Counted from the first letter of the stretch, positions 29,837-47,442 are shown. The stretch: DNA of 64,000 bases from an uncultured Finegoldia sp. (GCF_900766215.1 NZ_CAAFUQ010000095.1:8545-72544); one strand, 5' to 3'. The notes: generated by a model not told the origin, from the sequence alone. Made by a program: numbers and translations.

Positions 29837-29850
29837 AAAACCACCTCTTT

Positions 29851-31478: not shown

Positions 31479-32337
31479 TATTTACACCTCTTTTAACTAA
31501 ATTAAACGCTAAATTTATTAGTAGTATAAATACGAATAGTACCATTGCAGTAGCGATTAAAGCATCTCTGTGTGCGCCAGAAGCATAAGCCATGTCCAAT
31601 ACAATGTTAGTAGTCATTGTACGTGTTCCTGAAAAAATGCTTTTTGCAATAACAGGTTGATTTCCAGCAACTAAATATACAGCCATTGTTTCACCAATAG
31701 CACGTCCAATTCCAAGTATAACTGATGATAATATACCTGATTTTGCAGCGGGAACAACAACTCCCATAACGGCTAATTCGTGGCTAGCACCTAGAGCAAT
31801 ACTTCCTTCGTAGTAAGAATCAACAACAGTATTAATTGCACTTTCAGACAATGTGATTATTGTTGGTAAAATCATGATTCCTAAAAGAATAGATGCAGTA
31901 ACTATATTCATACCAGTTCCTCCAAATGCTTTTCTAATCATTGGAACAATAACTACCAAAGCAAAGAAACCATAAACTATAGATGGTATACCAGCCATTA
32001 AATCTATACAAGGTCTCAAAAAGCTATATAATTTTTTAGGACAAAACTTTGCAAGATAAATTGCAGTAAAAATTCCAATTGGAACTCCGATAATTATAGA
32101 ACCAATCGTTACATAGATACTACCTATAATCATAGGTAATATTCCAAATTGAGCAGGTACATCTACAGGAGACCAGTCCTTACCAAATATAAAATTAGTT
32201 AAACCAACTTTTTTTATAAAAGGCATTGATTCACCAAAAATGAAAAAACATATTAAAACTATTGCGAAAATAGAAGTTAGTGCTGAAACTAAAAACACGT
32301 ATTTCATTATTGATTCAGATAAATATTTCTTTTTCAT
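31468..32337 (-). CDS. pstC: Phosphate ABC transporter permease PstC
   Basis: Permease with an EGSIALGAS... loop. Confidence 0.85.
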   Translation of the reverse strand: MKKKYLSESIMKYVFLVSALTSIFAIVLICFFIFGESMPFIKKVGLTNFIFGKDWSPVDVPAQFGILPMIIGSIYVTIGSIIIGVPIGIFTAIYLAKFCPKKLYSFLRPCIDLMAGIPSIVYGFFALVVIVPMIRKAFGGTGMNIVTASILLGIMILPTIITLSESAINTVVDSYYEGSIALGASHELAVMGVVVPAAKSGILSSVILGIGRAIGETMAVYLVAGNQPVIAKSIFSGTRTMTTNIVLDMAYASGAHRDALIATAMVLFVFILLINLAFNLVKRGVNNGK

Positions 32338-32502
32338 ATTAAATCCTTTCTATATTTTTATCACCTTAATATTATCAAGTGCTTGTAAAATAAATGCGAT
32401 AATAATGTTAATTTAATGTAAAGTTTTCTAACTTATCTCACAAAAATCGTATAGAATAGAGAAATAGTATGATTTTATAAATGTAAAATATATATTTGGA
32501 AA

Positions 32503-32535
32503 TTAAAAAACAGACCTCGTGTGAGATCTGTTTTT
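32503..32535. terminator. Hairpin between pstS and pstC (partial terminator or processing site), with A/T runs on both sides
   Basis: aacagacctc...gagatctgtt is a 10-bp stem with one mismatch, flanked by A6 upstream and T5 downstream on the + strand. Confidence 0.55.
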
Positions 32536-32544
32536 AGAGAGGAA

Positions 32545-33489
32545 TTATTTAGAAATTTCAGACCAAGATTTAACTTTTCCAGTGAAAATATCTTTTACTT
32601 GTTCTAATGTTAAATCAGTTGCCTTAGTATTTTCTTTGTTTACTATAACTGCTATACCGTCAATTGCGATTGGTTGAGCCTTTAATTGTTCTTTTTCTTT
32701 ATCTTTTAATTCTCTTGAAGCCATTCCAATGTCACATACTCCTTCAATAGCTGAGTTCATACCAGCTGAAGAACCAGTAGATTGAATTTCAATTTCTACT
32801 TCTGGGTACATTCCTTTGTAAGCTTCTGCCAATTTTTCCATTAATGGGGAAACGGATGTTGAACCTGCAACTACAATTTTACCTTTTTGTGAATTTTTGT
32901 TGTAAGCTTTAGCTTCTTGAGGAAGTTGTTCATAACCTTCTTTTTTAACAATTTCTTGTCCTTCTTTAGATAAAATGAAATCTAAGAAATCTTTTGGAAG
33001 TGGTTTTAATTCTCCTTTGTAAGCGATGTTAAAAGGTCTTGAGATTTTATAGTCACCTTTTTGAACATTTTCAGAAGTTGCTTCAACGCCGTTGATTTTA
33101 ATTGCATTAACTTTGTCATTTAAAGAACCTAATGAAATGTATCCAATAGCATCTTTGTCTTGACCAACAGTCATCATTACTGCGTTAGTACTGTTTTGAA
33201 CAATGGCTGAAGCTGCTGTTTTGTCTTGTTCTTTTCCGTCAGCACCTTTTTCTAGAATTTTAGTAATTTCTGTAAATGCTCCTCTAGTACCTGAACCATT
33301 TTCTCTTGATACTACGTGGATTTCTTCTCCAGCACTTTCGTTTGATTTAGAATCATTAGAAGTAGTTTCTGTTTTGTTTGAGTTTTCTGATGTTTTTCCA
33401 TCATCTTGTTTTGCACATGCTACCATGAATACTCCGAATACAAGCATCATAGCAACTAACATTAATTTTTTGATTTTCAAATAAATCAT
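32545..33489 (-). CDS. pstS: Phosphate-binding lipoprotein PstS
   Basis: Signal peptide with a VACAK lipobox, Ser/Thr-rich linker and a PBP-superfamily domain. Confidence 0.85.
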   Translation of the reverse strand: MIYLKIKKLMLVAMMLVFGVFMVACAKQDDGKTSENSNKTETTSNDSKSNESAGEEIHVVSRENGSGTRGAFTEITKILEKGADGKEQDKTAASAIVQNSTNAVMMTVGQDKDAIGYISLGSLNDKVNAIKINGVEATSENVQKGDYKISRPFNIAYKGELKPLPKDFLDFILSKEGQEIVKKEGYEQLPQEAKAYNKNSQKGKIVVAGSTSVSPLMEKLAEAYKGMYPEVEIEIQSTGSSAGMNSAIEGVCDIGMASRELKDKEKEQLKAQPIAIDGIAVIVNKENTKATDLTLEQVKDIFTGKVKSWSEISK

Positions 33490-33622
33490 CCTTTCATATT
33501 TAATTCACTAATAGAATACATGTAATGTTTAAAATTCATATAATATTATTGTAAATTGTATGTAAAATTAATTATTAACATATTTTTAAAATAAAGTGTT
33601 ATACTATTTCTAGGGGGAATAT

Positions 33623-34728: not shown

Positions 34729-35259
34729 ATGAAAAGAAATGTAGATTTTTATGTAAAACAAAGAAATGAGTTAATTGATTTATTAGATGATGGCAAAATT
34801 ACGAAACAGGAATTTATTTCAAGAAACAATGTATTAATTGATAGTTTTAATCTTAGACCATTTATCAATATTAAAACTGTAAATGAGGGGATTTTTAACT
34901 ACCAATACTATAATTCAAAAGCTAAAGAATACAATACTATCGCAAACAAATATAAAAACAAGAAACCGAAAAAATACATTGCATCATTAAATAAATGCAG
35001 AAACTATTACTTGGAAAAAGATAATACGATTTTAAAAATCTTGGAATTGATAGAATACAAAAATGTTGAGGCATATTACATAGATATTTTATCATACAGA
35101 ATGAGAGATAATCTTTTTGAAATTGTGCTTAAAGATTATGAGAAGATGATTTTTCATACAATAAATGAAAACATAAAAAAACATTTAAATGATAACAATG
35201 TTTTCGAACCAATAAAGAAAAAATCCCTTATCGATTCTTATGTCAATAAGGGATATTGA
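34729..35259 (+). CDS. Hypothetical protein, 176 aa, Lys/Asn-rich, with no recognisable motif
   Basis: Intact ORF with an RBS (GGTAGAGGA); no TM segment and no motif recognised. Confidence 0.5.
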   Translation: MKRNVDFYVKQRNELIDLLDDGKITKQEFISRNNVLIDSFNLRPFINIKTVNEGIFNYQYYNSKAKEYNTIANKYKNKKPKKYIASLNKCRNYYLEKDNTILKILELIEYKNVEAYYIDILSYRMRDNLFEIVLKDYEKMIFHTINENIKKHLNDNNVFEPIKKKSLIDSYVNKGY

Positions 35260-35649
35260 TTATTTCTTGATTTTGGCAACTATTTGTTCAGTAGTCATAT
35301 TTTTATTTAGTTTGTAGTTGCCATCTTTGAATGCAGTAACATTGTTTTGCTTTAAGTAGTTTAAGAATTCTTGTTCATTAGTAATTATGTTTCCGCTTAT
35401 CAAAATCTTGGATACATCCAAATCTTTTGCTTCGGGTGGAATTGTGATTTCAATGTCTTTAACTTCTTCTGTGACTTGTTTGATTTTTAAATCTTTTGAA
35501 TAGGTTTGAGAACTTGTGTAATTTTTTGAAAACATTGAATCAATTGTTTTATACACATAAAGTGTTGTGATTACTAGAATTAGTAACAATAATAAAAGCT
35601 TTGCAAATTTATAAATAAAATCTACTATAGTATCAATAAAATTTTTCAT
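35260..35649 (-). CDS. Hypothetical single-pass membrane protein, 129 aa; weak resemblance to the N-terminal TM plus YceG-like region of MltG
   Basis: N-terminal TM followed by a small domain (ITIPPEA...TTEQIVAKIKK). It is convergent with the preceding gene, with no spacer. Confidence 0.45.
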   Translation of the reverse strand: MKNFIDTIVDFIYKFAKLLLLLLILVITTLYVYKTIDSMFSKNYTSSQTYSKDLKIKQVTEEVKDIEITIPPEAKDLDVSKILISGNIITNEQEFLNYLKQNNVTAFKDGNYKLNKNMTTEQIVAKIKK

Positions 35650-35709: not shown

Positions 35710-36675
35710 ATGAGACATATAAATATAGATGATTCAAATAGCAATCAAAGAGTAGATAGGTTCATAATGAAACTAATGCCGAAAATGAGCAAAAATCATA
35801 TTCAAAAACTTATCCGAACTAAAAAAATAAAAGTAAATAAAAAAAGGACAGAGCCTGATTATAATTTGAAAATAGACGATATTGTCAATATTTATTTGTA
35901 TGATGAGGTAATTGAAAAATATCAAGATAATAAAGTCTACACTGCTGAAGATTTTAACCTAGATATTATTTTTGAAGATGAGGATTTAATATTGATTAAC
36001 AAAAAAACAGGAGTATTATCTCATGCTGCAAATCCTAGTGATTATGGGAAAAATATTGTGGATATGATGGTAAGTTATTTGATAAAAACTAATCAATATC
36101 AACCAACTCAAAACTCAACATTTACACCAGCATTGGTTAATAGATTGGACAGGAACACATCTGGAATTGTTGTCGGTGCAAAAACTTATGATAGTCTAAA
36201 ATTCTTTAATAATTTATTCAAAAAGCACGACATTACGAAAATTTATGAAACAATTGTAGTTGGGAATTTACAAGATCAAATGATTGATTTGGGACTGGAA
36301 AAAGATAGCGAAAAAAATAAATCCATTATTAATTCAGAAGGAAAGAAAAGTTTAACTAAGGTATGGAATGTAAAAAATTATGGTAGATACTCATTAGTAA
36401 ATGTGGATTTGTTGACAGGAAGAACTCATCAAATAAGAGCTCATTTAGCACACATCAATCATCCAATTATTGGAGATATTAAATATGGAAATAAAGAAGT
36501 AAACAAATATTTTAAGAATAAATACGATTTGAATTTTCAATTATTGCATTCTTATAAGTTAGAATTCCCAGAAAAAATGGAAAAGTATCAAAAATACGAA
36601 TCAATGGTTTTTGAAAGCAAGAGAGATGACATATTTGAAAAAGTATTGAATGATTTGGAGAACAAATATGATTAG
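35710..36675 (+). CDS. RluA-family pseudouridine synthase
   Basis: S4 domain N-terminus, catalytic-region HRLDRNTSG and RTHQIRAH motifs. Confidence 0.85.
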   Translation: MRHINIDDSNSNQRVDRFIMKLMPKMSKNHIQKLIRTKKIKVNKKRTEPDYNLKIDDIVNIYLYDEVIEKYQDNKVYTAEDFNLDIIFEDEDLILINKKTGVLSHAANPSDYGKNIVDMMVSYLIKTNQYQPTQNSTFTPALVNRLDRNTSGIVVGAKTYDSLKFFNNLFKKHDITKIYETIVVGNLQDQMIDLGLEKDSEKNKSIINSEGKKSLTKVWNVKNYGRYSLVNVDLLTGRTHQIRAHLAHINHPIIGDIKYGNKEVNKYFKNKYDLNFQLLHSYKLEFPEKMEKYQKYESMVFESKRDDIFEKVLNDLENKYD

Positions 36676-38287
36676 GATAGTTAATAATAATAAAACTTGT
36701 AATTACGAAAATAAAACAATATATGATTATGCGCTTGATTATGGATTTGAAGATAGTATTGTTGCATTAAAAAACAACAAAATTGTAGATATTATGAGTA
36801 GTGTCGATGATGGCGATTTTATAGAATTTCTGGATGAAAGCAACGTTTACTCACAAGATACATTGATGAAAACAGGAATTTTATTATTGTTATTAGCATT
36901 TAAAATTAAATTTCCAAAAGAACAATTAGTCGTTGAATACACTATAGGAGATTATATGTATCTTGAATTCGAAAATAACAATGAAATCCACTTTAAAGAC
37001 TTGGAAGAAATAAGAGAGTTAATGGATGATTTGATAAGTCAAAATCTCAGAATAGAGAGAGTAAAAGTTTCTAGAAAAGAAGCTTTTGATATTTTTGAAA
37101 AAGAAGGATACATTCAAAAATCAAGACTACTAAAAAGCCTGGATAAAGAAGAGGTGTACTTATATAAATGTCATGAACATTATTTTGGAATTGAAGGATT
37201 TGTTGCGCCATTCACTAGATTTTTAAAACATTACAAACTTATCAATTATTTTCCTGGAGTTGTATTAAGTGTAAGCAGTTCAGGTGAGTTTAGCAAATTC
37301 AAAGAAGAAAAAGCTCTTGCGAAAATATTTGTAAAATCTAAAAAATGGACTGAAATGTTGGATATAGGATATGTCGGAAGTTTGAACGAAAAAATAATAG
37401 ATGACAACATGGATTTTTTAGTTAGTGTTAATGAAGCTTATTTTGAAAATCAAATTTCTTATATTGCAGATAAGATTATTTATAATAACGCAAGATTAAT
37501 CCAAATATCGGGACCATCTTCATCCGGAAAAACAACTATGGCAAAAAGACTTTCTGTGCAATTAGCTGTTAGAGGGAAAAATCCTATTCCAATTTCTATG
37601 GACAATTATTTCGTAAACAGAATTGATACTCCCTTGGATAAAGACGGAAACAGAGATTATGAATCGATTAACGCCCTTGATTTGAAAACATTTAACAAGG
37701 ATTTAATGAGTTTATTAGAAGGCGATTATGTTAATTTGCCGATTTATAACTTTATAACAGGAGAGAGAGAATACGGCAATACTTATACAAAACTGGATAA
37801 AAATGGAATTATAATCGTAGAAGGAATTCATGGACTTAATCCAAAACTTACAAGTTTAGTTCCTGATAAAGACAAATACAAAATTTATGTGTCTGCTTTG
37901 ACACAACTAAGTATTGATTGCCATAACAGAATTTCAACAACAGATATGAGACTTATGAGAAGAATGGTAAGAGATTTTGTTCAAAGAGATAAAAGCATTG
38001 ATGATACATTATCTGAATGGCCAAGAGTTCATGCTGCTGAATACATCAATGTATTTCCTTATCAAAATGAAGCGGATAGTATAATAGACTCTTCGTTAAT
38101 TTATGAAATCAATATTTTGAAAAAATACGTTTTAAAACTTGTAGAAAATTACGACAAAAAAGGATTAAATTTTACAGAGATTGAAAGATTAAAATCAATT
38201 CTAAATTATTTTATCGAAATAAATGACGATTCAATAGTTCCGAAAAACTCAATTTTGCAAGAATTCATAGGAGATTACAATGAATAA
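36668..38287 (+). CDS. Fusion protein: ThrRS-like TGS and second-additional-domain N-terminus plus a uridine/cytidine kinase (PRK) domain; nucleoside kinase family
   Basis: C-terminal Walker A ISGPSSSGKTT, then PISMDNYF and IIVEGIHGL (Udk/PRK motifs), with an N-terminal TGS-like region. ATG 36668 with GGAG upstream is preferred to the listed 36650. Confidence 0.75.
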   Translation: MIRIVNNNKTCNYENKTIYDYALDYGFEDSIVALKNNKIVDIMSSVDDGDFIEFLDESNVYSQDTLMKTGILLLLLAFKIKFPKEQLVVEYTIGDYMYLEFENNNEIHFKDLEEIRELMDDLISQNLRIERVKVSRKEAFDIFEKEGYIQKSRLLKSLDKEEVYLYKCHEHYFGIEGFVAPFTRFLKHYKLINYFPGVVLSVSSSGEFSKFKEEKALAKIFVKSKKWTEMLDIGYVGSLNEKIIDDNMDFLVSVNEAYFENQISYIADKIIYNNARLIQISGPSSSGKTTMAKRLSVQLAVRGKNPIPISMDNYFVNRIDTPLDKDGNRDYESINALDLKTFNKDLMSLLEGDYVNLPIYNFITGEREYGNTYTKLDKNGIIIVEGIHGLNPKLTSLVPDKDKYKIYVSALTQLSIDCHNRISTTDMRLMRRMVRDFVQRDKSIDDTLSEWPRVHAAEYINVFPYQNEADSIIDSSLIYEINILKKYVLKLVENYDKKGLNFTEIERLKSILNYFIEINDDSIVPKNSILQEFIGDYNE

Positions 38288-40958
38288 AAGAGTTGTTTAT
38301 ACTAATTCAAATTCTTCAAAGCTATTTGATGAAAATATATCTTTTTTAGAAAATCAAATAATTAAAGGCAACACTGATTTTATTTTGATTTTACCGAATA
38401 GAAAACTTATCAAAAATATTAGAAACAAATTTTTAAAAGAACAATCAGTGTTGTGTGATGTTAAAATTTGGACGATAGATGACTTGGCGAATGCTTCTGA
38501 TATTTCGACATATTTAACAGATCTTATTGTGCGATTAGCTATTCAAGATCTAATTGACGAAGGTGAGTTTGATGATAATAAGTTTTTTAATTCAAAAGGT
38601 ATTATTAATTCATCAAAAAAATTCATATCATCTTGTAAGTATTCAAATAAAAACTTAAATGATTTAGATATCATTTCTGACAAAGATGTAAGTTTGAGTA
38701 TTTTAAGCAAAGTTTATGAGAAGTATCAAAATATTATGAAACAATATAATTTATTGGATAAATTTGATGCTTATGAAATCAAAAACCTCAATATACAAAA
38801 AAATAAAGACATCTATATTCATGGGTTTAGTGAATTTAGACCAATTGAATTAGAGGTTATAAAACAATTAAAAAATTATGATGTAAATGTTTATATTTAC
38901 GTTGATTATTACAATGAATATAAAAGTAAATTAGTTAATCAATTGGAAGACATCGGATTTGAAGTAATTGAAAGTGCGGAAAATTTCGAAACTAATAATT
39001 TTATAGAGAAGAAAATTGTCAAATTAACTAACGAAATATTAGAAAAAGATAGGCTAATTGATGAGATTTGCAAAGATTCTTATGAGTATGATTATAACAA
39101 GATGGCTATTTTAATTGAAAGAGATTCATCGAAAAGAGAAATCTTAAATTCTCTGAAATCACATGATATTCCAGTTTTTGGAGATGATTATATTTCGTAT
39201 CAGAATTATAAAATCTTCTCTGACATAATTAATATTCTAGATAAAAGCAAAGCTTTTAAACAATATGTGTTTTCCATATTAGATAGTTGTTTTGTAGAAT
39301 TTGATTTGAAAGACAAAATTAGTTTCAGAAGTATATTAGTAGATTTTGAATTTGATAATTGGGAAAGTCTGGATAAAATATTGAAATCAAATCTAAATTA
39401 TGAAAACAACCTTCAAATATTAAACAAAATAAAATTCTTGTATTCATCATTTATTGAAACTGATATAGACGTGATTAAAAATCTCATATCGCTTTTAGAG
39501 AAAAAAGAAAGTGATGAGATAGAATTCAATTTGTTTACAGAAAAACTTTTATTAATATTAGAGGACTTGGATAAAACTTATTGTGAACTTGTTAAAAAAT
39601 CGAAAAACTTAAACGAATATTTGATAGACTTGATTAAAAATTTAAGGGTTGATTCTACAAATTATTTAGTGGATGGAATTAGAATTTACAGTCTGACAGA
39701 TATCAGACTTTCTAACTACGATGTTTTATACATTGTTAATATGAATGATGATGTAATTCCTGGAAAAGTTAATTACGATTTCTTTTACAATGAAGAAAAC
39801 ATTAAGTTTCTTCAAAATTGCGGAGTTGATATTTTATCAGATGCAGATAATAGAAAGCGAAATATTGATAGATTTGTAGATGCGATTAATAGAGCGAATA
39901 AAAAAGTATATATGTCCTATAATACAGAAAACAGTATTAAATCAAGGTTGATTTTGGATAAAAACATCACATCAAATCAAAAAATCAAAAAACTTAAGAA
40001 CAAAAACATAAGAAAAATTGATACCAAAAAACTTCACAGCGTATCATCTTATGAAAAATATTCTTTAAAACAACATTTAAATAGATTAGAAACAAGAATA
40101 ATGTCAAAGGATATCTCTGATTTTGAAGTTGACGATAAGACAACTCAATATATATTAAACAAAGAATTATCTCCAACACAACTTGAAACATATTTTGAAT
40201 GTCCAATGAAATTTTATTTTAGATATTATTTGAAACTTAAACCACAAGTCAAATCTAGGCAATTGGATATTGGAACTATATTGCACAATACATTGGAGGA
40301 ATTTTACGGGATTAATATATCTCAAATTAAAGATGCAATTGATGGTAAGTGTGAACTAGACTTATCCAGCTTGGATAGTTTACTAAAGAATTCATTTGAA
40401 AAATTCGGATTAAATACGGATATTAAGGAAAATGAATTTGACTACGATAAATATTTATTTAAACTCAAAGATTTTATTAAAGAAGACATTTACAATAACA
40501 GACAAGAAGCTGAAAAGTTTTATCCTTACAAGTTAGAAGAAGATTTTATTGTGAGTTTAGATGAAAATACAAAATTTATTGGGAGAATTGACAGGGTGGA
40601 CAAAACAGATTCCGGTAAAATCAGATTAATTGATTACAAATTATCCCAAAATAGTTTTAGAAAAGCAAAGGATTTGGCTAAGAATAAGGGATTTCAATTT
40701 GCGATATATTCATCTTATGGGAATGTAGTAAGTTGCAAATACAAAAGCATAAAGGATAATGAGGAATATGAATATCTTCAATCTATTAATAAAGATGAAC
40801 TAGATGAAATTATGATTGAAAAGGTAAAAGAATTTCGAGAAAACATTAGAAATAAAAGATTATTCATAAAAGCAAATGATTACAATTCCTGTAATTATTG
40901 CGATTATAATAAAATTTGTAAGTTGAAAAACACTGAAGGAGAAGCTATCGATGATTAA
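38280..40958 (+). CDS. addB: AddB/RexB-like helicase-nuclease subunit B, compact at 892 aa; C-terminal PD-(D/E)XK nuclease with a Fe-S cluster; no Walker A motif
   Basis: Nuclease motifs GRIDRVDKTD...IRLIDYK. The four-Cys pattern CPMKFYF ... CNYCDYNKIC (C-x2-C-x5-C) is typical of the AddB/Cas4 Fe-S nuclease domain. No GxxGxGK(S/T) is found at the N-terminus. Confidence 0.7.
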   Translation: MNKRVVYTNSNSSKLFDENISFLENQIIKGNTDFILILPNRKLIKNIRNKFLKEQSVLCDVKIWTIDDLANASDISTYLTDLIVRLAIQDLIDEGEFDDNKFFNSKGIINSSKKFISSCKYSNKNLNDLDIISDKDVSLSILSKVYEKYQNIMKQYNLLDKFDAYEIKNLNIQKNKDIYIHGFSEFRPIELEVIKQLKNYDVNVYIYVDYYNEYKSKLVNQLEDIGFEVIESAENFETNNFIEKKIVKLTNEILEKDRLIDEICKDSYEYDYNKMAILIERDSSKREILNSLKSHDIPVFGDDYISYQNYKIFSDIINILDKSKAFKQYVFSILDSCFVEFDLKDKISFRSILVDFEFDNWESLDKILKSNLNYENNLQILNKIKFLYSSFIETDIDVIKNLISLLEKKESDEIEFNLFTEKLLLILEDLDKTYCELVKKSKNLNEYLIDLIKNLRVDSTNYLVDGIRIYSLTDIRLSNYDVLYIVNMNDDVIPGKVNYDFFYNEENIKFLQNCGVDILSDADNRKRNIDRFVDAINRANKKVYMSYNTENSIKSRLILDKNITSNQKIKKLKNKNIRKIDTKKLHSVSSYEKYSLKQHLNRLETRIMSKDISDFEVDDKTTQYILNKELSPTQLETYFECPMKFYFRYYLKLKPQVKSRQLDIGTILHNTLEEFYGINISQIKDAIDGKCELDLSSLDSLLKNSFEKFGLNTDIKENEFDYDKYLFKLKDFIKEDIYNNRQEAEKFYPYKLEEDFIVSLDENTKFIGRIDRVDKTDSGKIRLIDYKLSQNSFRKAKDLAKNKGFQFAIYSSYGNVVSCKYKSIKDNEEYEYLQSINKDELDEIMIEKVKEFRENIRNKRLFIKANDYNSCNYCDYNKICKLKNTEGEAIDD

Positions 40959-43854
40959 ATTTAGCGAAAATCAAAAATTAGCTTATTCGACATTAAATCA
41001 AAATGTTTGTATAAATGCTGGTGCAGGAACTGGTAAAACTGAAGTAGTGTCTGAAAGATTCAGATATATGTATGAGAATGGATTTGATATCAAAAAAATT
41101 GTATGCATAACTTTTACGAACAAAGCTGCAGATGAAATGAAAGACAGAATTATTCAAAAGTTAAATAATCCTAAATTAATTGACGATATTAATGTATCAA
41201 CAATTTCGTCTTTCTGCAAAAAAATCGTATCAGATTATTCTTATTATTTATCGATAGATCCTAGCTTTAAAATCATAGAAGATGACGAATCCAATAGAAT
41301 GCTCAATGGAATTTTTGACAATATATTAGAAAATAGAATTGATTATATTAAAAGTTTAGGAAGTACATTTGACATTTCTTATGTTGATACACTCAAAATA
41401 ATAAGGGATTCTTTTTATAAAATAAGAACGAACAACGTTGATATTTACGAATTAAAAAAAGATACTACAGAATACTTGAAAAGTTTGAGAAATATCGAAA
41501 AAGAAGATGTTATCGGTTTAAAAAGTTATTTATTTGATTTAAAAGGAGAATCAGACAATATCAAAGGACTTACTAAGAATAGTAGATTTTACAAATTCTT
41601 ACATGATGATAATCAAAACTTAAAAGATGATGAGTTTATACAATTTTTGTTAAAAAGCTTTGATAATTTAGGTGAAAGTAAGAAGGAAAATGTTCAAGAA
41701 ATAATAGATGAAGTAAACCTCAAAATCGATATAATACTTTCAAATAAAGAAAAAGAATACCTGAGTTTGTACGAAGGATTTTTCGATATTTTGATAGAAA
41801 TAAACAAAGAATATTCAGATAAAAAACTCGAAAAAAGCGTTCTGGATTTCAATGATATAGAAATAATGTGCAAAAAAGCTTTAAAAAATAATGAAATTCT
41901 TAAATCATGTAAAGAAAGATACCAATATTTCATGATAGACGAGTATCAAGACACTTCTAATTTGCAACGAGATATTTTTTATATGCTATGCAGCGATGAA
42001 AAAAAATTGGATAGGAATAATCTTTTTGTTGTAGGAGATCCAAAACAAGCTATATACAGCTTTAGAGGAGCAAATATAAAAGTTTTTGAGAAAACAAGAG
42101 AAGACATACTAAAAAGCGGTGGAAAAGATATCACTTTTTATGAAAATCACAGAACTCACCCTAATATTATGGAACCTATTAACTATATTTATTCGAATAA
42201 AATGAAAGAAAGATATGATAGCTTAATCGCTGTTAATAAAATTGGAGATGTTATCGGTCGAGATGAGTTCAAGCTTAACAATAAAGACACTAAGACAAAA
42301 GATGATTCATGTGATGTTTTGATATCTTATATAAATGAGGATAATTTCAGGGATACTGCAATTCTTGCAAGAACGAAAAATGACTTTTCATCTTATGAAA
42401 AAAGTCTTAATAATAGAAACATTCCTTATTATATATTCGACAAACAAGGGTTAGAAGATTGCAGAGAAATATTAAATCTGATTCAATTTATAAAATATGC
42501 AAGATACGGTGATGAGATAAGCAAAGTAGGAATACTTTCTAATGTCTACGATGTTGATTACAATGAGATATTAAACAAAAACGATAATTACAAATCGACA
42601 ATTAAAAAGATCGATAATCAAGTTGAAGTATTTACAGAAAATTTGATTAAATACAGTATCTACGATTCAATTTCATATTATATAGAACAGATAAATTACT
42701 TGGAATTGGTGGGTAATCTTCAAGCTAAAGCTAATGTGATTAAGTTTTTGGAAATTGCTAAGCAATTTGATTCAAACAATTTTAATATAGAAGATTTTGT
42801 TGATTATTTTGAGAATAACACTAACTTATATCAAATGTCTTATGAAGACGAACACAGCGACTTAGTAAAGCTGATGACAATTCACAAATCTAAAGGTTTA
42901 GGATTTGGTAAAGTTATAGTGGATAATCTATCCAAGCCATCAGTAAACAAAGACAAATTCTTATTATTTATTGACAATGAAACAATGAAAAATCAATTCG
43001 TATTGAATATTCCATTTTCAAAATTTAGAATGTCAAAAGTAAAAAAATTAATAGACAAGGAAGAAGATTACGAAGTTGATAACGTGTACTACACGGCATT
43101 TACTCGTGCAAAAAGGGAATTATCATTTTCAAATTCAAAAAAATCAGGACATTTCAAACAAATCAGCCCATATATTGAGGAGTTGCAACAAAGAGGAAGG
43201 ATTAAATATTTAGAATTGAATGAAAAGCCTTTTAAATCAGAATCTATTAAAACGAGTTATTTTAGTTTAAAACCAAAATTAGTGGATATCGAGAAGCTTA
43301 TTCCTATTGGCATTACTACTATCTTAAATTCTGATGAGGAAATTTTTGAAAGTAATGTACAGAAATCTGAGATAAATTATATAAGGCTGGGTAATTTGGT
43401 TCACCTTTATGCAAAACTATCTAATGGTGAAAATTCACCTTCTATTAGAGAAGTTGATTTTTTAAATGATGATGAAAAGAAAATTTTTGATGTTGCAACA
43501 AAAAACTTTAATAAGTTTATTACAGATTTTTCAAACTACAAAAACGAAATGGATTTTAATTTATTGTATGAAAATATGATGATATCTGGATTTATGGATA
43601 GAGTTGAATTTTCGGACAAAGAAATCAGAGTTTATGATTACAAAATAAGTTCACAATCACAAGAATATTTGTACGAAAAATATCATATTCAATTGAAGTT
43701 CTATTCTTATGTTTTAAGAAAAAAATACAATAAAAATATTAAAATGATACTTTTGAATTTGAGAAGGGGATATATTATCGAAAAAGTTTACGATAAAAAT
43801 TGTGAACGAGAAGTTGAAGTTTTTCTCGACAATTATTTAAATCAATTGAAATAG
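40951..43854 (+). CDS. addA: AddA-like UvrD-family helicase/nuclease subunit A, compact at 967 aa
   Basis: GAGTGKT (I), TFTNKAA (Ia), DEYQDTS (II), GDPKQAIYSFRGA (III), MTIHKSKGLGFG (V), YTAFTRAKRE (VI). C-terminal RecB-type nuclease: GFMDRVEF...VYDYKIS...QLKFYSYVL. Confidence 0.8.
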   Translation: MIKFSENQKLAYSTLNQNVCINAGAGTGKTEVVSERFRYMYENGFDIKKIVCITFTNKAADEMKDRIIQKLNNPKLIDDINVSTISSFCKKIVSDYSYYLSIDPSFKIIEDDESNRMLNGIFDNILENRIDYIKSLGSTFDISYVDTLKIIRDSFYKIRTNNVDIYELKKDTTEYLKSLRNIEKEDVIGLKSYLFDLKGESDNIKGLTKNSRFYKFLHDDNQNLKDDEFIQFLLKSFDNLGESKKENVQEIIDEVNLKIDIILSNKEKEYLSLYEGFFDILIEINKEYSDKKLEKSVLDFNDIEIMCKKALKNNEILKSCKERYQYFMIDEYQDTSNLQRDIFYMLCSDEKKLDRNNLFVVGDPKQAIYSFRGANIKVFEKTREDILKSGGKDITFYENHRTHPNIMEPINYIYSNKMKERYDSLIAVNKIGDVIGRDEFKLNNKDTKTKDDSCDVLISYINEDNFRDTAILARTKNDFSSYEKSLNNRNIPYYIFDKQGLEDCREILNLIQFIKYARYGDEISKVGILSNVYDVDYNEILNKNDNYKSTIKKIDNQVEVFTENLIKYSIYDSISYYIEQINYLELVGNLQAKANVIKFLEIAKQFDSNNFNIEDFVDYFENNTNLYQMSYEDEHSDLVKLMTIHKSKGLGFGKVIVDNLSKPSVNKDKFLLFIDNETMKNQFVLNIPFSKFRMSKVKKLIDKEEDYEVDNVYYTAFTRAKRELSFSNSKKSGHFKQISPYIEELQQRGRIKYLELNEKPFKSESIKTSYFSLKPKLVDIEKLIPIGITTILNSDEEIFESNVQKSEINYIRLGNLVHLYAKLSNGENSPSIREVDFLNDDEKKIFDVATKNFNKFITDFSNYKNEMDFNLLYENMMISGFMDRVEFSDKEIRVYDYKISSQSQEYLYEKYHIQLKFYSYVLRKKYNKNIKMILLNLRRGYIIEKVYDKNCEREVEVFLDNYLNQLK

Positions 43855-43890
43855 CTAAATTATGGGTTATAATAATACATGAGGTGTAAT

Positions 43891-44580
43891 ATGAGTATTA
43901 AAGTTCTTTTAGTTGAAGATGAAGATAATATAAGACAATTTACAAAAATAAATTTAGCAAGAGAAGGCTTTGAGATTCTGGAAGCTGAGTCTGGAGAAAA
44001 AGGGGTAGAATTAGCAGAATTAAATAAACCAGATGTTGCTGTGTTGGATATAATGCTACCTGGAATTGACGGATTTGAAGTTTGTAAAATTTTAAGAAAT
44101 AAATTTCCAAATATGATTATTATTATGTTGACAGCAAAAACTCAAGATAATGATAAAATTGAAGGACTTGAAAGGGGAGCAGACGATTATTTGACGAAAC
44201 CTTTCAATCCTCGTGAGTTGATTCTTAGAATTAAATCTGTTTTGAGAAGGAGTCCTCAAAAACAAAATAATAGTCAAATTATTGAAGATGATACATTCAA
44301 GCTAGATATGTATTCTAGAACTTTTTATAAAAACGGAAAAGAAATTACATTGACTCCAACAGAGCTTAATATTATAAAACTTTTAATGAAAAATCCTGGT
44401 AAAGCTATAACTAGAGATGAATTGATGGATAAAGCATGGGGTGAAGATTTCATAGGCGACGCTAAAATTGTTGATGTTAATATGAGAAGATTGAGAAGCA
44501 AAATTGAAGAAGATTCAACTCACCCAAAATACATTGTAACAGTGTGGGGAGTTGGTTACAGATGGGAAAATAAAAAATAA
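43891..44580 (+). CDS. OmpR-family response regulator
   Basis: Receiver domain (LVEDE...DIMLPGIDG...TAK) plus a trans_reg_C winged helix. ATG 43891 is preferred to the listed 43879. Confidence 0.85.
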   Translation: MSIKVLLVEDEDNIRQFTKINLAREGFEILEAESGEKGVELAELNKPDVAVLDIMLPGIDGFEVCKILRNKFPNMIIIMLTAKTQDNDKIEGLERGADDYLTKPFNPRELILRIKSVLRRSPQKQNNSQIIEDDTFKLDMYSRTFYKNGKEITLTPTELNIIKLLMKNPGKAITRDELMDKAWGEDFIGDAKIVDVNMRRLRSKIEEDSTHPKYIVTVWGVGYRWENKK

Positions 44581-45986
44581 TGAGTATTAAAAACAAAATA
44601 ATGTATTCCTTTGTATTTTTAACAAGTATTACCGCGATAATACTTGTTATATTTTCTATTTATGCTACTAAGTTTTATTATTATTCTACAATGGAAGGCG
44701 TTTTGAACAACGAAATAAGATATTCTACAAATTTGTATAGCTCTTATATGGCAGATTATGAACTAGATGAAGTAATTGCCGAAGATAAAAACCAGTTTTA
44801 CAGACAAACTGACTGCCAAGTGCAAATTTTGGACAATAATCAAGTTGTTGTATTTGACTCAATTGCAAGTCCAAATTTGGGCGAAAAAATAGAAACATCA
44901 GATGTAGTAAGTGCAATAAATGGTCAAAGTGGAAGATACACAGGAAAAGTTAGTTATTCTGATTCAAATATTATTTCTGTTTCTGTTCCACTTGAATCCA
45001 GGGGAAAACAAGTCGGAGTTTTAAGATATATTTCAAGTTTAAAGGAAATAGACAGGGCAATAAGAGTGAAGTCAGTATCTTTTGCTTTGTTCGGATTTTT
45101 AGTAATATTATTCAGTATTTTATTGAGCAAAATTTTAACTAAAAGCATAATCAAACCGATAAATAGTCTTGCTAAAACTGCCGAAAAAATGGCTAAGGGT
45201 GATATGGAAGTAAGAGCAAAAGAAAATGATACAGATGAAATTGGAAGACTTGGAATGACTTTGAATTTATTGACGGACAATATTAACAAGAAAGAACAAT
45301 TGAAAAACGAATTTATTTCAAGCGTATCACATGAATTGAGAACACCGTTAACTTCTATAAAAGGATGGGCACAAACATTAAAATATGATCCTTCAGATTT
45401 AGAAACAACAACTATGGGAATTGATATAATCGATAGCGAATGCGACAGACTTACAAATATGGTTGAGGAGTTACTTGATTTTTCAAGATTTACTTCCGGA
45501 AGAATTTCAATAGTTAAGAGAAAACAAAATTTAATTGAATTAGCAGAACATATCAAAAACCAATTGCTTCCTAAAGTTCGTTCTAAAGGAATTGATTTGA
45601 TATTAAATTATGAAAGTCCAGAACTCATCGTTACATTTGACGAAGATAGAATTAAGCAAGTTTTCATTAATATTTTAGATAATGCTATAAAATTTACTCC
45701 GGAAAAAGGAACGATAATTATTAATATTGAAAAAACGGAAAAATTTGCAGAAGTATCTATAATAGATACAGGGATTGGAATTTCATTTGAAGAAATAGAA
45801 CTCGTAACTGGAAAATTTTACAAAGGCTCTAATTCGAATTCTCATGTAGGTTTGGGGCTTTCTATTTGCGAAGAAATAGTAAAACTTCACAAGGGAGAAT
45901 TGATGATTAAATCCAAATTAGATGAAGGAACTACAGTTTCGTTTACATTGCCATTAGGAGATGATGAAAATGAAAAAGACAACTAG
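44580..45986 (+). CDS. Sensor histidine kinase (TM - extracytoplasmic domain - TM - HAMP - HisKA - HATPase_c)
   Basis: H-box SVSHELRTPLTSI; N box NILDNAIKFT; G boxes DTGIGI and GLGLSI. Confidence 0.85.
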   Translation: MSIKNKIMYSFVFLTSITAIILVIFSIYATKFYYYSTMEGVLNNEIRYSTNLYSSYMADYELDEVIAEDKNQFYRQTDCQVQILDNNQVVVFDSIASPNLGEKIETSDVVSAINGQSGRYTGKVSYSDSNIISVSVPLESRGKQVGVLRYISSLKEIDRAIRVKSVSFALFGFLVILFSILLSKILTKSIIKPINSLAKTAEKMAKGDMEVRAKENDTDEIGRLGMTLNLLTDNINKKEQLKNEFISSVSHELRTPLTSIKGWAQTLKYDPSDLETTTMGIDIIDSECDRLTNMVEELLDFSRFTSGRISIVKRKQNLIELAEHIKNQLLPKVRSKGIDLILNYESPELIVTFDEDRIKQVFINILDNAIKFTPEKGTIIINIEKTEKFAEVSIIDTGIGISFEEIELVTGKFYKGSNSNSHVGLGLSICEEIVKLHKGELMIKSKLDEGTTVSFTLPLGDDENEKDN

Positions 45987-47442
45987 TATTTTGGTAGGTA
46001 CGATAGTTTTAATTTTGTTGATTGTTTTCATACTGTTCAGAAATAAAGAACAATCTGCAGTTGAAAATATTAAAGTTCCTGAAAATAATTTATTGGTCGC
46101 AGCAGGTGTGTGGCAAATTGATAAGAAAGAAAGCTTTTCTGATTCTAAATCCAAAGTTTCAGATGAAATAGGTAAACTTTACGTCGATGAATCTATAGTT
46201 GTTTTTGGAAAAAGATTTACTATAAACCCTAAATTTTCGTCTAAATTTGTCAGTTTACAAAATTATCTAAGTAAAAAAACAAGCGATGAAAATATAAGTA
46301 AGAAATTTTCTAAAGATAAGAAAATGGTCATTACAATTTCTGATGGCAGCAAGTTTTATCAAGATGTTGTTGTAATGGATAAAAACAATATAATTTTACC
46401 ATACAACGGAGTACTTTATTATATGAAGAAAACAGAAAATAAAGTAAGTAGAACTTTTATTGAGAATTATCAGTCAACCTATGAAAGTAAATATTATGAA
46501 AATAAAGGAAACAATTTAAAAGACAAAGAAAATATTGCTCTTTTAATTGGAATCAAAAATAAAGTTGTAAGAAATGATGAAAGTGATATATCTTATATGA
46601 CTATTTTATTGGATATCGACAAGAAAAATCGCGCACAGATTTATCAAACATCTGCATTGTTTTTCCCTAGAAAAAATGGGTTCTGGACTATGGAATACAA
46701 AAAGAATGAATTTGATAATAACTATGTAGAGCAATTCTTAGCTAAGCCAGTTTATTCAGGAGATAATTCTAAAGAAAATAAAAAATTGGAATTTGACACA
46801 TCTGCAGAAATAACATACCTAGGTCCAGAATATATCTCAATCATGCGAAATAAGAATCAATTTGAATATTATTCTATATATGGTATAGATAAAATGAGCA
46901 ATAATAATGAACTTAATATTGATCAAATCGGTGGTAAAGAGGCTGTAAATGTATTAAAGAATTCTATAGCAGAAGAATCAACAGATTCAAATTCCGAAAT
47001 TTCTTTAAATGATAAAAATGAAGATTACAAAAATATTGGAATTGTAAGAAATTCTGGTAAATGGAATTATCAAACACAATATACATTCAAAGAAAATAAT
47101 GAGATTAAGTTGAAAAATGTAATCCTCAACATCGTTTCACATTTGAATTTATCACCAGATGAATTATCTATGAATTGGCAATCTATAAAAAATTTAAAGA
47201 GCAGTGCGATAGATGCATATTCTTCTCCTGATAAGAGAATATTAATAGTTCAAACGACAGACGAAATATTAATTTACGATTATTCTAATGATAATAAATT
47301 AATAGGAAGTATTCCAATTACGAAAGATGATTCAATTATAATGAGTGAATGGGCAATAGGAAATTATGCCGAAATGTGGAAAAAAGAATTTCAAAACAAC
47401 GACAAAATTCCATCATCATTTATTACTAACCTAAGACAATAA
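45970..47442 (+). CDS. Hypothetical exported/membrane-anchored protein, about 490 aa, overlapping the end of the kinase gene
   Basis: MKKTTSILVGTIVLILLIVFILF signal-anchor followed by a large Asn/Lys-rich hydrophilic domain. There are three in-frame ATGs at 45961, 45964 and 45970; AGGAG at 45956-60 favours 45970. Confidence 0.55.
   Translation: MKKTTSILVGTIVLILLIVFILFRNKEQSAVENIKVPENNLLVAAGVWQIDKKESFSDSKSKVSDEIGKLYVDESIVVFGKRFTINPKFSSKFVSLQNYLSKKTSDENISKKFSKDKKMVITISDGSKFYQDVVVMDKNNIILPYNGVLYYMKKTENKVSRTFIENYQSTYESKYYENKGNNLKDKENIALLIGIKNKVVRNDESDISYMTILLDIDKKNRAQIYQTSALFFPRKNGFWTMEYKKNEFDNNYVEQFLAKPVYSGDNSKENKKLEFDTSAEITYLGPEYISIMRNKNQFEYYSIYGIDKMSNNNELNIDQIGGKEAVNVLKNSIAEESTDSNSEISLNDKNEDYKNIGIVRNSGKWNYQTQYTFKENNEIKLKNVILNIVSHLNLSPDELSMNWQSIKNLKSSAIDAYSSPDKRILIVQTTDEILIYDYSNDNKLIGSIPITKDDSIIMSEWAIGNYAEMWKKEFQNNDKIPSSFITNLRQ

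What the first reader, a model, noticed from the sequence alone, without database searches (positions are those of the whole stretch)
35710..43854. Translationally coupled four-gene operon linking an RluA pseudouridine synthase and a TGS-nucleoside kinase to a compact, Walker-A-less AddB/AddA-like helicase-nuclease
The four genes at 35710-36675, 36668-38287, 38280-40958 and 40951-43854 overlap by 8 nt at every junction, and no terminator separates them. Gene 4 has every UvrD/AddA helicase motif (GAGTGKT, DEYQDTS, GDPKQAIYSFRGA, MTIHKSKGLGFG, YTAFTRAKRE) and a RecB-type nuclease with a D-Y-K core, but is 967 aa against roughly 1200 aa for canonical AddA. Gene 3 has the AddB nuclease core (GRIDRVD...IDYK) and the four-cysteine Fe-S pattern (CPxxF ... 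C-x2-C-x5-C), but is 892 aa against roughly 1150 aa and shows no Walker A motif in its N-terminal helicase-like domain. I do not recall from the well-studied Bacillus or Lactococcus systems an AddAB/RexAB pair miniaturised this way and co-transcribed with an RNA-modification enzyme and a nucleoside kinase. Two readings are possible. It may be a streamlined housekeeping AddAB in a reduced genome. Alternatively, a recombination/end-resection nuclease may be functionally tied to nucleotide salvage, or the pair may have a derived role.
Basis: partly seen in the sequence, partly recalled or inferred. Interest (0 to 1): 0.6.

Follow-up and report, generated by a model that had tools for sequence, protein, structure and literature searches.

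The report
Ordinary compact AddAB DNA-repair operon
This is the normal double-strand-break repair enzyme AddAB of a Finegoldia bacterium, in the short form without the AddB ATP-binding (Walker A) motif that is usual for its relatives; it lies next to an rRNA-modifying gene and a nucleoside-kinase gene because the genes between them were lost, and nothing shows a shared function.

Summary
Four same-strand ORFs (321, 539, 892 and 967 aa) overlap by 8 nt at every junction. Each start has a GGAG upstream, and no convincing terminator lies between the genes. All quoted motifs are present and AddB has no Walker A.

Profiles and AlphaFold models of genes 3 and 4 match B. subtilis AddB and AddA along their full length (profile E-values 1e-56 and 4e-134; best Foldseek hits 3U4Q_B and 4CEI_A). 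No domain is missing. The shortness comes from scattered loop and linker deletions.

The organism is a Finegoldia sp. Its relatives show a size gradient (AddB 867-1030 aa, AddA 964-1116 aa). Of 118 long relatives, 109 lack an N-terminal Walker A and 113 keep the Cys cluster. The literature already says that only a subset of AddB proteins has a Walker A, and that a shorter B. fragilis AddAB is functional.

Across 82 kinase-anchored genome loci, addBA follows the kinase in only six. In four of those six, unrelated genes (ROK kinase, glutaminase, GH3) lie between them. In Tissierella sp. Yu-01, addBA lies with no rluA or kinase called in the 8 kb shown upstream. A functional tie to nucleoside salvage is therefore not supported.

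Verdict: housekeeping AddAB in a locally compacted operon; low interest.

The parts
35710..36675 (+). rluA-family 23S rRNA pseudouridine synthase gene (321 aa). S4 domain at residues 13-59 (nt 35746-35886); catalytic domain at residues 92-248 (nt 35983-36453).
   Evidence: Pfam PF00849 E 1.5e-28 and PF01479. TIGR00005 214 bits, above the cut-off of 192.7.
36668..38287 (+). 'Nucleoside kinase' gene (539 aa). N-terminal ThrRS-like TGS+N2 module at about residues 1-192 (nt 36668-37243). Udk/PRK P-loop kinase domain at residues 274-493 (nt 37487-38146), with Walker A GPSSSGKT.
   Evidence: PF00485 E 3.5e-16. Family profile against ThrRS 1NYQ residues 3-199, E 7e-22, and against uridine kinase 3W8R, E 7e-16. 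More than 7900 homologues of ~540-555 aa; where a source gives a name it is mostly 'nucleoside kinase' or 'uridine kinase'.
38280..40958 (+). addB (892 aa). Inactivated SF1-helicase-like N-terminal region of about residues 1-560. Low-confidence linker at 560-610. RecB-type nuclease with Fe-S cysteines at residues 629-881.
   Evidence: Family profile against B. subtilis AddB 3U44_B, E 1e-56, collinear over 18-985 and 1067-1135. AF2 model pLDDT 84; best Foldseek hit 3U4Q_B, E 1.3e-26, TMq 0.51. PF21445 ADDB_N found in 12 of 24 family members.
38298..38321 (+). Position of the degenerate Walker A in AddB (residues 7-14, YTNSNSSK).
   Evidence: Translation. No GxxGxGK[ST] in any of the 24-30 aligned family members. 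The lysine is not conserved even in the 58%-identical relative P0017.
40164..40922 (+). AddB nuclease/Fe-S domain. C641 at nt 40200-40202. G768-R-I-D771-R-V-D ... D785-Y-K787 at nt 40581-40640. Q806/Y810. C871-x2-C874-x5-C880 at nt 40890-40919.
   Evidence: PF12705 E 7.5e-32. C641, G665, H669, E753, G768, D771, R772, D785, K787, Q806, Y810, C874 and C880 are invariant in 24-30 relatives.
40951..43854 (+). addA (967 aa). Active SF1A helicase at residues 6-730 (nt 40966-43140), with Walker A GAGTGKT at residues 24-30 (nt 41020-41040). C-terminal RecB-type nuclease at about residues 810-946 (nt 43378-43788), with D883 ... D896-Y-K898.
   Evidence: PF00580 E 2e-56, PF13361 and PF12705. Family profile against AddA 3U44_A, E 4e-134. 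AF2 model pLDDT 83; best Foldseek hit 4CEI_A, E 6e-44, TMq 0.58. Helicase and nuclease residues invariant in 16 relatives.
36668..36675 (+). rluA/kinase junction: 8-nt overlap ATGATTAG, with GGAG upstream.
38280..38287 (+). kinase/addB junction: 8-nt overlap ATGAATAA, with GGAG upstream.
   Evidence: The same overlap is present in another Finegoldia species (L009).
40951..40958 (+). addB/addA junction: 8-nt overlap ATGATTAA, with GGAG upstream.
   Evidence: Tight addB-addA junctions also occur in relatives: 1-nt overlap in Tissierella sp. Yu-01, 4-nt overlap in Lagierella, no gap in Miniphocaeibacter.

Best explanation
Genes 3 and 4 encode the housekeeping AddAB helicase-nuclease of a Finegoldia species (Peptoniphilaceae). 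It belongs to the short AddB class that lacks the Walker A motif but keeps the Fe-S cysteines, the class typical of this lineage.

By analogy with B. subtilis AddAB (inferred), the two proteins form a heterodimer that binds a broken duplex end. AddA's single SF1A motor unwinds the DNA 3'->5'. The AddA nuclease cuts the 3' strand and the AddB nuclease cuts the 5' strand. The AddB nuclease domain is held together by a 4Fe-4S cluster on C641, C871, C874 and C880. The dead helicase-like domain of AddB scans the 3' strand for a species-specific Chi sequence and then spares that strand, leaving it for RecA loading.

The shortness comes from many small loop and linker deletions, not from loss of a domain.

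The four-gene overlapping arrangement arose in Finegoldia by loss of the metabolic genes (ROK kinase, glutaminase, GH3 hydrolase) that separate the rluA-kinase pair from addBA in related genera. The genes are probably co-transcribed and translationally coupled. This reflects genome compaction rather than a shared pathway.
For: Identity. The AddB family profile matches B. subtilis AddB end to end (E 1e-56). The AddB AF2 model (pLDDT 84) has AddB chains as its five best PDB matches, ahead of AdnA and RecC. The AddA profile hits AddA at E 4e-134, ahead of PcrA, UvrD and RecB. The AddA model's top four matches are AddA chains.

Catalytic and Fe-S residues are invariant across relatives.

Lineage trend. 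AddB is 889-892 aa in Finegoldia, 867-968 aa in the other close short relatives (source organisms not named; Miniphocaeibacter 913 aa) and 994-1030 aa in Tissierella-like relatives. AddA is 964-994 aa in Finegoldia, 1008 aa in Lagierella and 1088-1116 aa in Tissierellaceae-like relatives. The deletions are scattered: in AddB after residues 238, 406, 611 and 833; in AddA after residues 74, 548, 764 and 791-794 and at the C-terminus.

Walker A. It is absent in 109 of 118 long relatives, and the Cys cluster is present in 113 of 118. Literature: only a subset of AddB proteins has a Walker A, and the K14A mutant keeps ATPase and helicase activity (PMC3064778). [quoted passage not shown]

Synteny. 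The order rluA-kinase-addB-addA is direct only in Finegoldia (window, L009) and Miniphocaeibacter (L007). A ROK gene is inserted in Mediannikoviicoccus and Lagierella, glutaminase plus ROK in L016, and GH3 in L012. Tissierella sp. Yu-01 has GH3-ROK-addB-addA with no rluA or kinase called in the 8 kb shown upstream. Tissierella MSJ-40 and Anaerococcus have rluA-kinase with no addBA within 9 kb downstream. In 59 of 82 loci the kinase has neither neighbour.

Coupling. There are 8-nt overlaps with SD sequences and no convincing terminator.
Against: Both proteins score far below the NCBIfam equivalog cut-offs (addB_Gpos 37 against 904; addA_Gpos 215 against 708). Public annotation calls them only 'PD-(D/E)XK nuclease family protein' and 'UvrD-helicase domain-containing protein'.

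Not tested here: heterodimer formation, Fe-S binding, nuclease polarity and Chi recognition.

I could not check whether the genome has a second addAB or a recBCD.

The adjacency of rluA-kinase and addBA recurs, with inserts, in several genera. Some selective value of the neighbourhood therefore cannot be fully excluded.
Confidence: 0.85

Rival explanations
1. Functional coupling. AddAB is deliberately co-expressed with the RluA pseudouridine synthase and the TGS-Udk nucleoside kinase. The purpose could be to recycle nucleosides released by end resection, or to match repair capacity to ribosome biogenesis and growth rate.
For: All three junctions are tight 8-nt overlaps with SD sequences and no terminator. 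The rluA-kinase block lies upstream of addBA in six kinase-anchored loci from at least five genera.
Against: In four of those six loci, unrelated genes (ROK kinase, glutaminase, GH3) lie between the kinase and addB. Tissierella sp. Yu-01 keeps GH3-ROK-addBA with no rluA or kinase in the 8 kb shown upstream. Tissierella MSJ-40 and Anaerococcus keep rluA-kinase with no addBA within 9 kb downstream. The kinase family occurs across Clostridia, Negativicutes, Thermotogae and Spirochaetes with no addBA neighbour. AddAB releases oligonucleotides, which are not substrates for a nucleoside kinase (background knowledge).
Confidence: 0.07
2. Derived role. The pair is not the cell's recombination enzyme but a diverged helicase-nuclease with another job, such as anti-phage DNA degradation in the manner of Gabija or Cas4-like systems. 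A canonical AddAB or RecBCD would then be encoded elsewhere.
For: The scores are far below the AddA/AddB equivalog cut-offs. PADLOC gives GajB hits for gene 4 (best 151 bits) and weak Cas4 hits for gene 3. The rest of the genome could not be searched.
Against: The GajB hits are generic UvrD-helicase similarity and score lower than the AddA model (215 bits). No GajA or other defence partner lies nearby. The locus lies in a conserved housekeeping neighbourhood shared with Miniphocaeibacter, with no mobile-element genes. The pair is present in all Finegoldia contigs retrieved. No long-form AddA or AddB labelled Finegoldia appears among the listed hits. The best sequence and fold matches are AddB and AddA themselves.
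Confidence: 0.05
3. Decaying genes. The shortened proteins are relics losing function in a small genome.
For: They are shorter than the Bacillus enzymes, they have lost the AddB Walker A, and they diverge quickly (only 81% identity to F. magna orthologues).
Against: The reading frames are intact. Lengths are identical (892 and 967 aa) across many Finegoldia strains. All helicase, nuclease and Fe-S residues are invariant across relatives only 20-40% identical. The folds are predicted with confidence.
Confidence: 0.02

Closest known systems
Bacillus subtilis AddAB (PDB 3U44, 3U4Q, 4CEH, 4CEI, 4CEJ)
   Same: Gene order addB then addA. AddA is a complete SF1A helicase with a C-terminal RecB nuclease. 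AddB has a helicase-like N-terminal fold, a RecB nuclease and four Fe-S cysteines (C...CxxCx5C). These are the best sequence and fold matches for both subunits.
   Different: AddB is 274 aa shorter and AddA 265 aa shorter, through scattered loop and linker deletions. AddB has no Walker A. The motif Ia/Ib positions that read Chi in B. subtilis (D41, Q42, T44, F68, R70; PMC3321194) are occupied by family-specific LPN and T-x-DD motifs, so a different Chi is expected (inference). Identity is only about 14-19%.
Bacteroides fragilis AddAB (PMC2887965)
   Same: [quoted passage not shown] The enzyme is demonstrably functional: it rescues E. coli recBCD, is processive and runs on a single motor.
   Different: It comes from a different phylum and is only distantly related in sequence. 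No direct alignment was made here.
Epsilonproteobacterial AddA-type 'RecB-like helicase' (NCBIfam PRK13909 models, 909-945 positions)
   Same: A helicase-nuclease of similar compact size. Gene 4 aligns over residues 79-937 to positions 97-899 of the 909-position model NF010485 (E 1.8e-55).
   Different: The score (189 bits) is well below the cut-off of 650, so gene 4 is not a member of that equivalog. Gene 4 scores higher against the Gram-positive AddA model.
Mycobacterial AdnAB
   Same: A two-subunit helicase-nuclease with a RecB nuclease in each subunit. AdnA is the next-best fold match for gene 3 after the AddB chains.
   Different: AdnA retains Walker A and B motifs (PMC3321194). Gene 3 has no Walker A.
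E. coli RecBCD
   Same: AddA resembles RecB and AddB resembles RecC in fold. The predicted function, Chi-regulated end resection, is the same.
   Different: There is no RecD-like second motor. AddB carries its own nuclease and Fe-S cluster.

Membership tests
AddA (helicase-nuclease subunit A) | Complete SF1A (UvrD/PcrA-type) helicase motifs, including Walker A GxGKT and DExQD | tested here: met
   GAGTGKT (residues 24-30), DEYQDTS, GDPKQAIYSFRGA, TIHKSKG and YTAFTRAK are present. They are invariant in 16 relatives. PF00580 E 2e-56 and PF13361.
AddA (helicase-nuclease subunit A) | C-terminal RecB-type PD-(D/E)XK nuclease domain | tested here: met
   PF12705 at residues 836-939. G814, H818, E866, G880, D883, D896, K898, Q914 and Y918 are invariant.
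AddA (helicase-nuclease subunit A) | Closest to characterised AddA rather than to PcrA, UvrD or RecB | tested here: met
   Profile against 3U44_A, E 4e-134, compared with PcrA 2e-101 and RecB 1e-67. The top four Foldseek hits are AddA chains.
AddA (helicase-nuclease subunit A) | Reaches the NCBIfam equivalog cut-off (TIGR02785 addA_Gpos, 707.65 bits) | tested here: not met
   215 bits. The protein is a divergent subfamily not captured by the curated model.
AddB (helicase-nuclease subunit B) | N-terminal inactivated UvrD-like helicase fold (four subdomains) that lacks the motor motifs | tested here: met
   Profile collinear with AddB residues 18-985. The AF2 model matches AddB chains over about 1070 alignment columns. 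The family profile also hits Rep, PcrA and UvrD over positions ~250-536.
AddB (helicase-nuclease subunit B) | C-terminal RecB-type nuclease motif (GRIDRID ... DYK) | tested here: met
   GRIDRVD (768-774) and IDYK (784-787). D771, D785 and K787 are invariant.
AddB (helicase-nuclease subunit B) | Four cysteines flanking the nuclease domain (one N-terminal, then CxxCx5C) for a 4Fe-4S cluster | tested here: met
   C641, C871, C874 and C880. The C-terminal Cys cluster is present in 113 of 118 long relatives. Actual cluster binding cannot be tested with these tools.
AddB (helicase-nuclease subunit B) | N-terminal Walker A. This is a feature of the Bacillus-type subset only, not of all AddB proteins (PMC3064778). 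| tested here: not met
   YTNSNSSK at the equivalent position. The motif is absent in all 24-30 aligned relatives and in 109 of 118 long relatives.
AddB (helicase-nuclease subunit B) | Reaches the NCBIfam equivalog cut-off (TIGR02773 addB_Gpos, 903.7 bits) | tested here: not met
   37 bits.
AddAB complex | addB and addA adjacent and co-oriented, encoding a heterodimer | tested here: met
   The pair is adjacent in the window and in L007, L009-L012, L016 and L090. Heterodimer formation itself was not tested, because no multimer prediction was available.
AddAB complex | ATP-dependent dsDNA-end exonuclease/helicase activity regulated by a Chi sequence | not testable with these tools
   A k-mer skew scan of the 64-kb window gave no clear Chi candidate and has too little power.
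RluA-family pseudouridine synthase | PseudoU_synth_2 catalytic domain with an S4 RNA-binding domain, scoring above the TIGR00005 cut-off | tested here: met
   214.2 bits against 192.7. PF00849 and PF01479 both hit. The score is below every specific RluC, RluD and TruC equivalog cut-off, so the target uridine is unknown.
Uridine kinase (Udk) | PRK/Udk P-loop kinase domain | tested here: met
   PF00485 E 3.5e-16. Profile against T. thermophilus uridine kinase 3W8R, E 7e-16.
Uridine kinase (Udk) | Reaches the Udk equivalog cut-off (TIGR00235 220 bits; NF004018 180 bits) | tested here: not met
   85-87 bits. This is a distinct ~540-aa family with a ThrRS-like N-terminal module. Its substrate is unknown.
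Four-gene operon | Co-transcription of all four genes | not testable with these tools
   Only indirect support: overlaps, SD sequences and no convincing terminator.

The most novel reading that the evidence does not exclude
The fusion of rluA, the ThrRS-like/Udk kinase, addB and addA into one translationally coupled unit in Finegoldia could be adaptive rather than a by-product of gene loss. It would tie double-strand-break processing stoichiometrically to an RNA-modification and nucleoside-phosphorylation module, for example to re-use resection products or to act at stalled, transcription-conflicted forks. The minimal Walker-A-less AddB would then read Chi without the nucleotide-dependent lock described in B. 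subtilis.
Probability: 0.05. Interest if true: 0.5.

Novelty: new member of a known kind. Interest (0 to 1): 0.15.

Why it matters
The main value is for annotation. Finegoldia and its relatives do have an AddAB end-resection enzyme, yet public records label the two genes only as a 'PD-(D/E)XK nuclease family protein' and a 'UvrD-helicase domain-containing protein'. The curated AddA and AddB models miss them by a wide margin.

The lineage offers a natural series of progressively trimmed AddAB enzymes, with AddB running from about 1030 aa down to 867 aa. That series marks which loops and linkers are dispensable, and it could supply a small enzyme for structural work.

It does not reveal a new system or a new link between recombination and nucleotide salvage.

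Tried and rejected
- Single-sequence phmmer of gene 3 against the PDB found only a small PD-(D/E)XK protein (9IAB, E 0.0035). A family profile was needed to reach AddB.
- The word-indexed homologue search for gene 3 reached only Finegoldia and four distant proteins. The exhaustive search supplied the intermediate relatives.
It was repeated with alignment A2.
- The scan for a Chi-like, strand-skewed, over-represented 5-8-mer in the 64-kb window gave no stand-out candidate. Known Chi sequences are rare there: AGCGG 8 against 3 on the opposite strand, GAAGCGG 1 against 0. Power is too low.
- The defence-system reading was considered and rejected. PADLOC hits are generic GajB and Cas4 similarity, and no partner genes are present.
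- Cromie 2009 (PMC2725590), the AddB classification paper, is not held. The C. jejuni AddAB paper has no size or motif data. The Finegoldia + AddAB literature search returned nothing relevant.
- A second addAB or recBCD in the genome could not be checked.

Full report

Yes. Four + strand ORFs lie at 35710-36675 (321 aa), 36668-38287 (539 aa), 38280-40958 (892 aa) and 40951-43854 (967 aa).

The mechanically longest ORF for gene 2 starts at 36650. The ATG at 36668 has a GGAG 8 nt upstream, and it is the start used in public gene calls for the identical contigs, where the product is also 539 aa.

The three junctions read ATGATTAG, ATGAATAA and ATGATTAA. Each is an 8-nt overlap, and each has a GGAG 5-9 nt upstream of the ATG. 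The consensus scan finds no convincing terminator between the genes. The only + strand candidates lie inside addA and have poor T tails.

Overlapping gene ends are common across the whole window (1, 4, 11, 14, 17 and 20 nt). Tight packing is therefore a genome habit. The thrice-repeated 8-nt spacing is particular to this cluster.

**2. What are the four genes?**

- Gene 1 is an RluA-subfamily pseudouridine synthase with an S4 domain. TIGR00005 scores 214 bits, above its cut-off of 192.7.
- Gene 2 carries a Udk/PRK kinase domain at residues 277-475. A profile of its family matches the N-terminal TGS+N2 region of S. aureus ThrRS (1NYQ residues 3-199, E 7e-22) and T. thermophilus uridine kinase (E 7e-16).
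- Gene 2 belongs to a very large family of ~540-555-aa proteins with more than 7900 hits, mostly named 'nucleoside kinase' or 'uridine kinase' where a source gives a name. The family is found in Clostridia, Tissierellia, Negativicutes, Thermotogae and Spirochaetes.
- Gene 4 has UvrD N- and C-terminal domains and a PD-(D/E)XK domain.
- In gene 3, Pfam recognises only the PD-(D/E)XK domain.

The organism is a Finegoldia sp. P0001 is 100% identical and is named 'MAG... [Finegoldia sp.]'. F. magna orthologues are about 81% identical and have exactly the same lengths.

**3. Are genes 3 and 4 really AddB and AddA, and is anything missing?**

The exhaustive search gave a graded series of gene 3 relatives of 867-1030 aa.

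AddB evidence:
- A profile of 24 relatives matches B. subtilis AddB (3U44_B) at E 1e-56. The match is collinear, with profile positions 18-864 aligned to AddB residues 18-985 and 891-956 aligned to 1067-1135.
- Pfam's ADDB_N model hits 12 of the 24 relatives.
- An AlphaFold model built on 30 relatives has mean pLDDT 84. Its five best PDB matches are AddB chains (3U4Q_B, E 1.3e-26, TMq 0.51 over about 1070 columns). AdnA and RecC follow.

AddA evidence:
- The family profile hits AddA 3U44_A at E 4e-134, ahead of PcrA, UvrD and RecB.
- The model (pLDDT 83) has AddA chains as its top four matches (4CEI_A, E 6e-44, TMq 0.58).

Residues invariant across relatives that are only 20-40% identical:
- In AddB: C641, G665, H669, E753, G768, D771, R772, D785, K787, Q806, Y810, C874 and C880. 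C871 is present in the short relatives.
- In AddA: the Walker A, DEYQD, GDPKQ-IY-FRG and TIHKSKG motifs, T718-R719-A720 of the YTAFTRAK motif, and the nuclease residues G814, H818, E866, D883, D896, K898, Q914 and Y918.

Both proteins therefore have the full canonical architecture.

Compared with the ~1000-1100-aa Tissierellaceae-like forms, the Finegoldia proteins lack only short segments:
- AddB loses 13 aa after residue 238, 14 aa after 406, 55 aa after 611 (the low-confidence linker before the nuclease domain) and 17 aa after 833.
- AddA loses 11 aa after residue 74, 20 aa after 548, 16 aa after 764, about 20 aa at 791-794 and 27 aa at the C-terminus.

**4. How unusual are the compactness and the missing Walker A?**

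They are not unusual.

- The AddB N-terminus reads YTNSNSSK at the position of the B. subtilis Walker A. No aligned relative has the motif.
- Among 118 long relatives from the searches, 109 lack an N-terminal Walker A while 113 keep the C-terminal cysteine cluster. The median length is 952 aa without the motif and 1080 aa with it.
[quoted passage not shown] The K14A mutation leaves ATPase, helicase rate and processivity intact and only destabilises the Chi complex about three-fold (PMC3064778).
[quoted passage not shown] B. fragilis AddAB is fully functional (PMC2887965).
- NCBIfam holds curated 'RecB-like helicase' models of 909-945 positions. Gene 4 matches one of them nearly end to end, although below its cut-off.
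- AddA sizes run 964-994 aa in Finegoldia, 1008 aa in Lagierella and 1088-1116 aa in Tissierellaceae-like relatives, against 1232 aa in Bacillus.

What is true is that both proteins are far below the equivalog cut-offs (37 against 904; 215 against 708). Public records accordingly do not name them AddAB.

**5. Is the link to RluA and the kinase meaningful?**

I anchored a genome-collection scan on the kinase. I then scanned the 82 resulting loci with HMMs for RluA, the kinase, AddB and AddA.

- RluA lies immediately upstream of the kinase in 16 loci and within about 0.8 kb in 5 more. Most of the named ones are Tissierellia.
- In 59 loci RluA is absent upstream.
- AddB-AddA lie downstream within 9 kb in only six loci. 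They are directly adjacent only in another Finegoldia (L009, with the same 8-nt overlaps at the last two junctions) and in Miniphocaeibacter (L007).
- In Mediannikoviicoccus and Lagierella a ROK-family kinase gene lies between the kinase and addB. In L016 a glutaminase and a ROK gene lie there, and in L012 a GH3 hydrolase.
- Tissierella sp. Yu-01 has GH3-ROK-addB-addA, with no rluA or kinase called in the 8 kb shown upstream.
- Tissierella MSJ-40 has rluA-kinase followed by a glutaminase and other genes.
- Anaerococcus has rluA-kinase with no addBA within 9 kb downstream.

The simplest history is an ancestral neighbourhood, rluA-kinase-(glsA)-(ROK/GH3)-addB-addA, from which Finegoldia lost the middle genes. 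That loss brought two unrelated units into contact. The one junction that is tight wherever the pair was found is addB/addA (0-, 1-, 4- or 8-nt spacing), as expected for subunits of one enzyme.

Functional coupling to nucleoside salvage is therefore not supported, though it is not strictly excluded.

**6. Mechanism (inferred from the B. subtilis enzyme; not tested here)**

- AddA and AddB form a heterodimer that loads on a duplex end.
- AddA's single SF1A motor drives 3'->5' unwinding.
- The AddA nuclease cuts the 3' strand and the AddB nuclease cuts the 5' strand.
- The AddB Fe-S cluster (C641, C871, C874, C880) stabilises the nuclease and end-binding domain.
- The dead helicase domain of AddB scans for Chi.
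- In B. subtilis, the Chi-reading residues are D41, Q42 and T44 (motif Ia), F68, R70 and W73 (motif Ib) and F210 (PMC3321194). The corresponding positions here carry family-conserved L38-P39-N40 and T65-x-D67-D68 motifs and F183/F186. The pocket framework is thus retained with different side chains, which fits a different, still unknown Chi.
- A k-mer scan of the 64-kb window was uninformative.
- Without a Walker A, any nucleotide-dependent locking onto Chi would be absent, as in most AddB proteins.

**7. Rivals**

- A defence or derived role is unlikely. PADLOC hits are generic, no partner genes are present, and the neighbourhood is conserved and housekeeping.
- Gene decay is contradicted by the conserved lengths and invariant catalytic residues.
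- A second end-resection enzyme elsewhere in the genome could not be excluded.

**8. Verdict**

This is a new, poorly annotated member of a known kind. Interest is low, at about 0.15.

Noticed in passing
window 35710-38287; loci L007-L016, L032, L042, L046, L057, L063, L064, L073: The rluA-family gene and the ThrRS-N-terminal-like (TGS+N2)/Udk 'nucleoside kinase' form a pair. It is directly adjacent in 16 of 82 kinase-anchored loci, and 5 more have it within about 0.8 kb. The kinase family is very large (more than 7900 homologues) and has no solved full-length structure. Its N-terminal module also resembles mitoribosomal protein mL39. This pairing is more conserved than the addAB link. It may hint at an RNA-associated role for the kinase.
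   Followed up: partly
L090 2745-11267; L010 10538-17122; L011; L016; L012: A ROK-family kinase, a GH3 hydrolase or both lie directly upstream of addB-addA in Tissierella sp. Yu-01 and several relatives. Upstream of addBA, ROK or GH3 is therefore seen without rluA-kinase (Tissierella sp. Yu-01) as well as together with it.
   Followed up: partly
L089 8001-10931 (Peptoniphilus porci); L091 8001-11270 (Schnuerera ultunensis): The AddA-like helicase-nuclease genes of these two genomes have no addB-like gene next to them. Their neighbours are IleRS/HTH genes and an allantoin-pathway cluster, respectively. Either addB lies elsewhere or these proteins act alone.
   Followed up: no
window 3978-8143: pcrA (725 aa: UvrD N- and C-terminal domains plus a PcrA tudor domain) overlaps by 1 nt with an NAD-dependent DNA ligase gene, ligA (662 aa). 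The genome therefore has a separate PcrA in addition to AddA.
   Followed up: yes
window 34729-35649; L007 6877-7959; L008 5417-7910: A DUF6648 gene lies upstream of rluA. Next to it is a divergently oriented, very short YceG-like ORF (129 aa; only the first ~60 positions of the 275-position YceG model, 26 bits, below the cut-off). This arrangement is conserved in Finegoldia, Miniphocaeibacter and Tissierella.
   Followed up: no
window 43846-47442: Downstream of addA lie an OmpR-type response regulator, a HAMP histidine kinase and a 493-aa protein with no Pfam family. A strong promoter-like site (TTGAAA-16-TATAAT, 11 of 12) at 43846-43873 overlaps the addA stop codon. The same trio follows addA in Miniphocaeibacter and lies a few kb downstream in Tissierella sp. 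Yu-01.
   Followed up: partly
window 26000-33500: The GC skew turns negative only across the minus-strand block 25861-33489, which holds the phosphate-transport (pst/phoU) genes and a two-component system. It is positive elsewhere. This looks like a gene-strand effect rather than a replication landmark.
   Followed up: no
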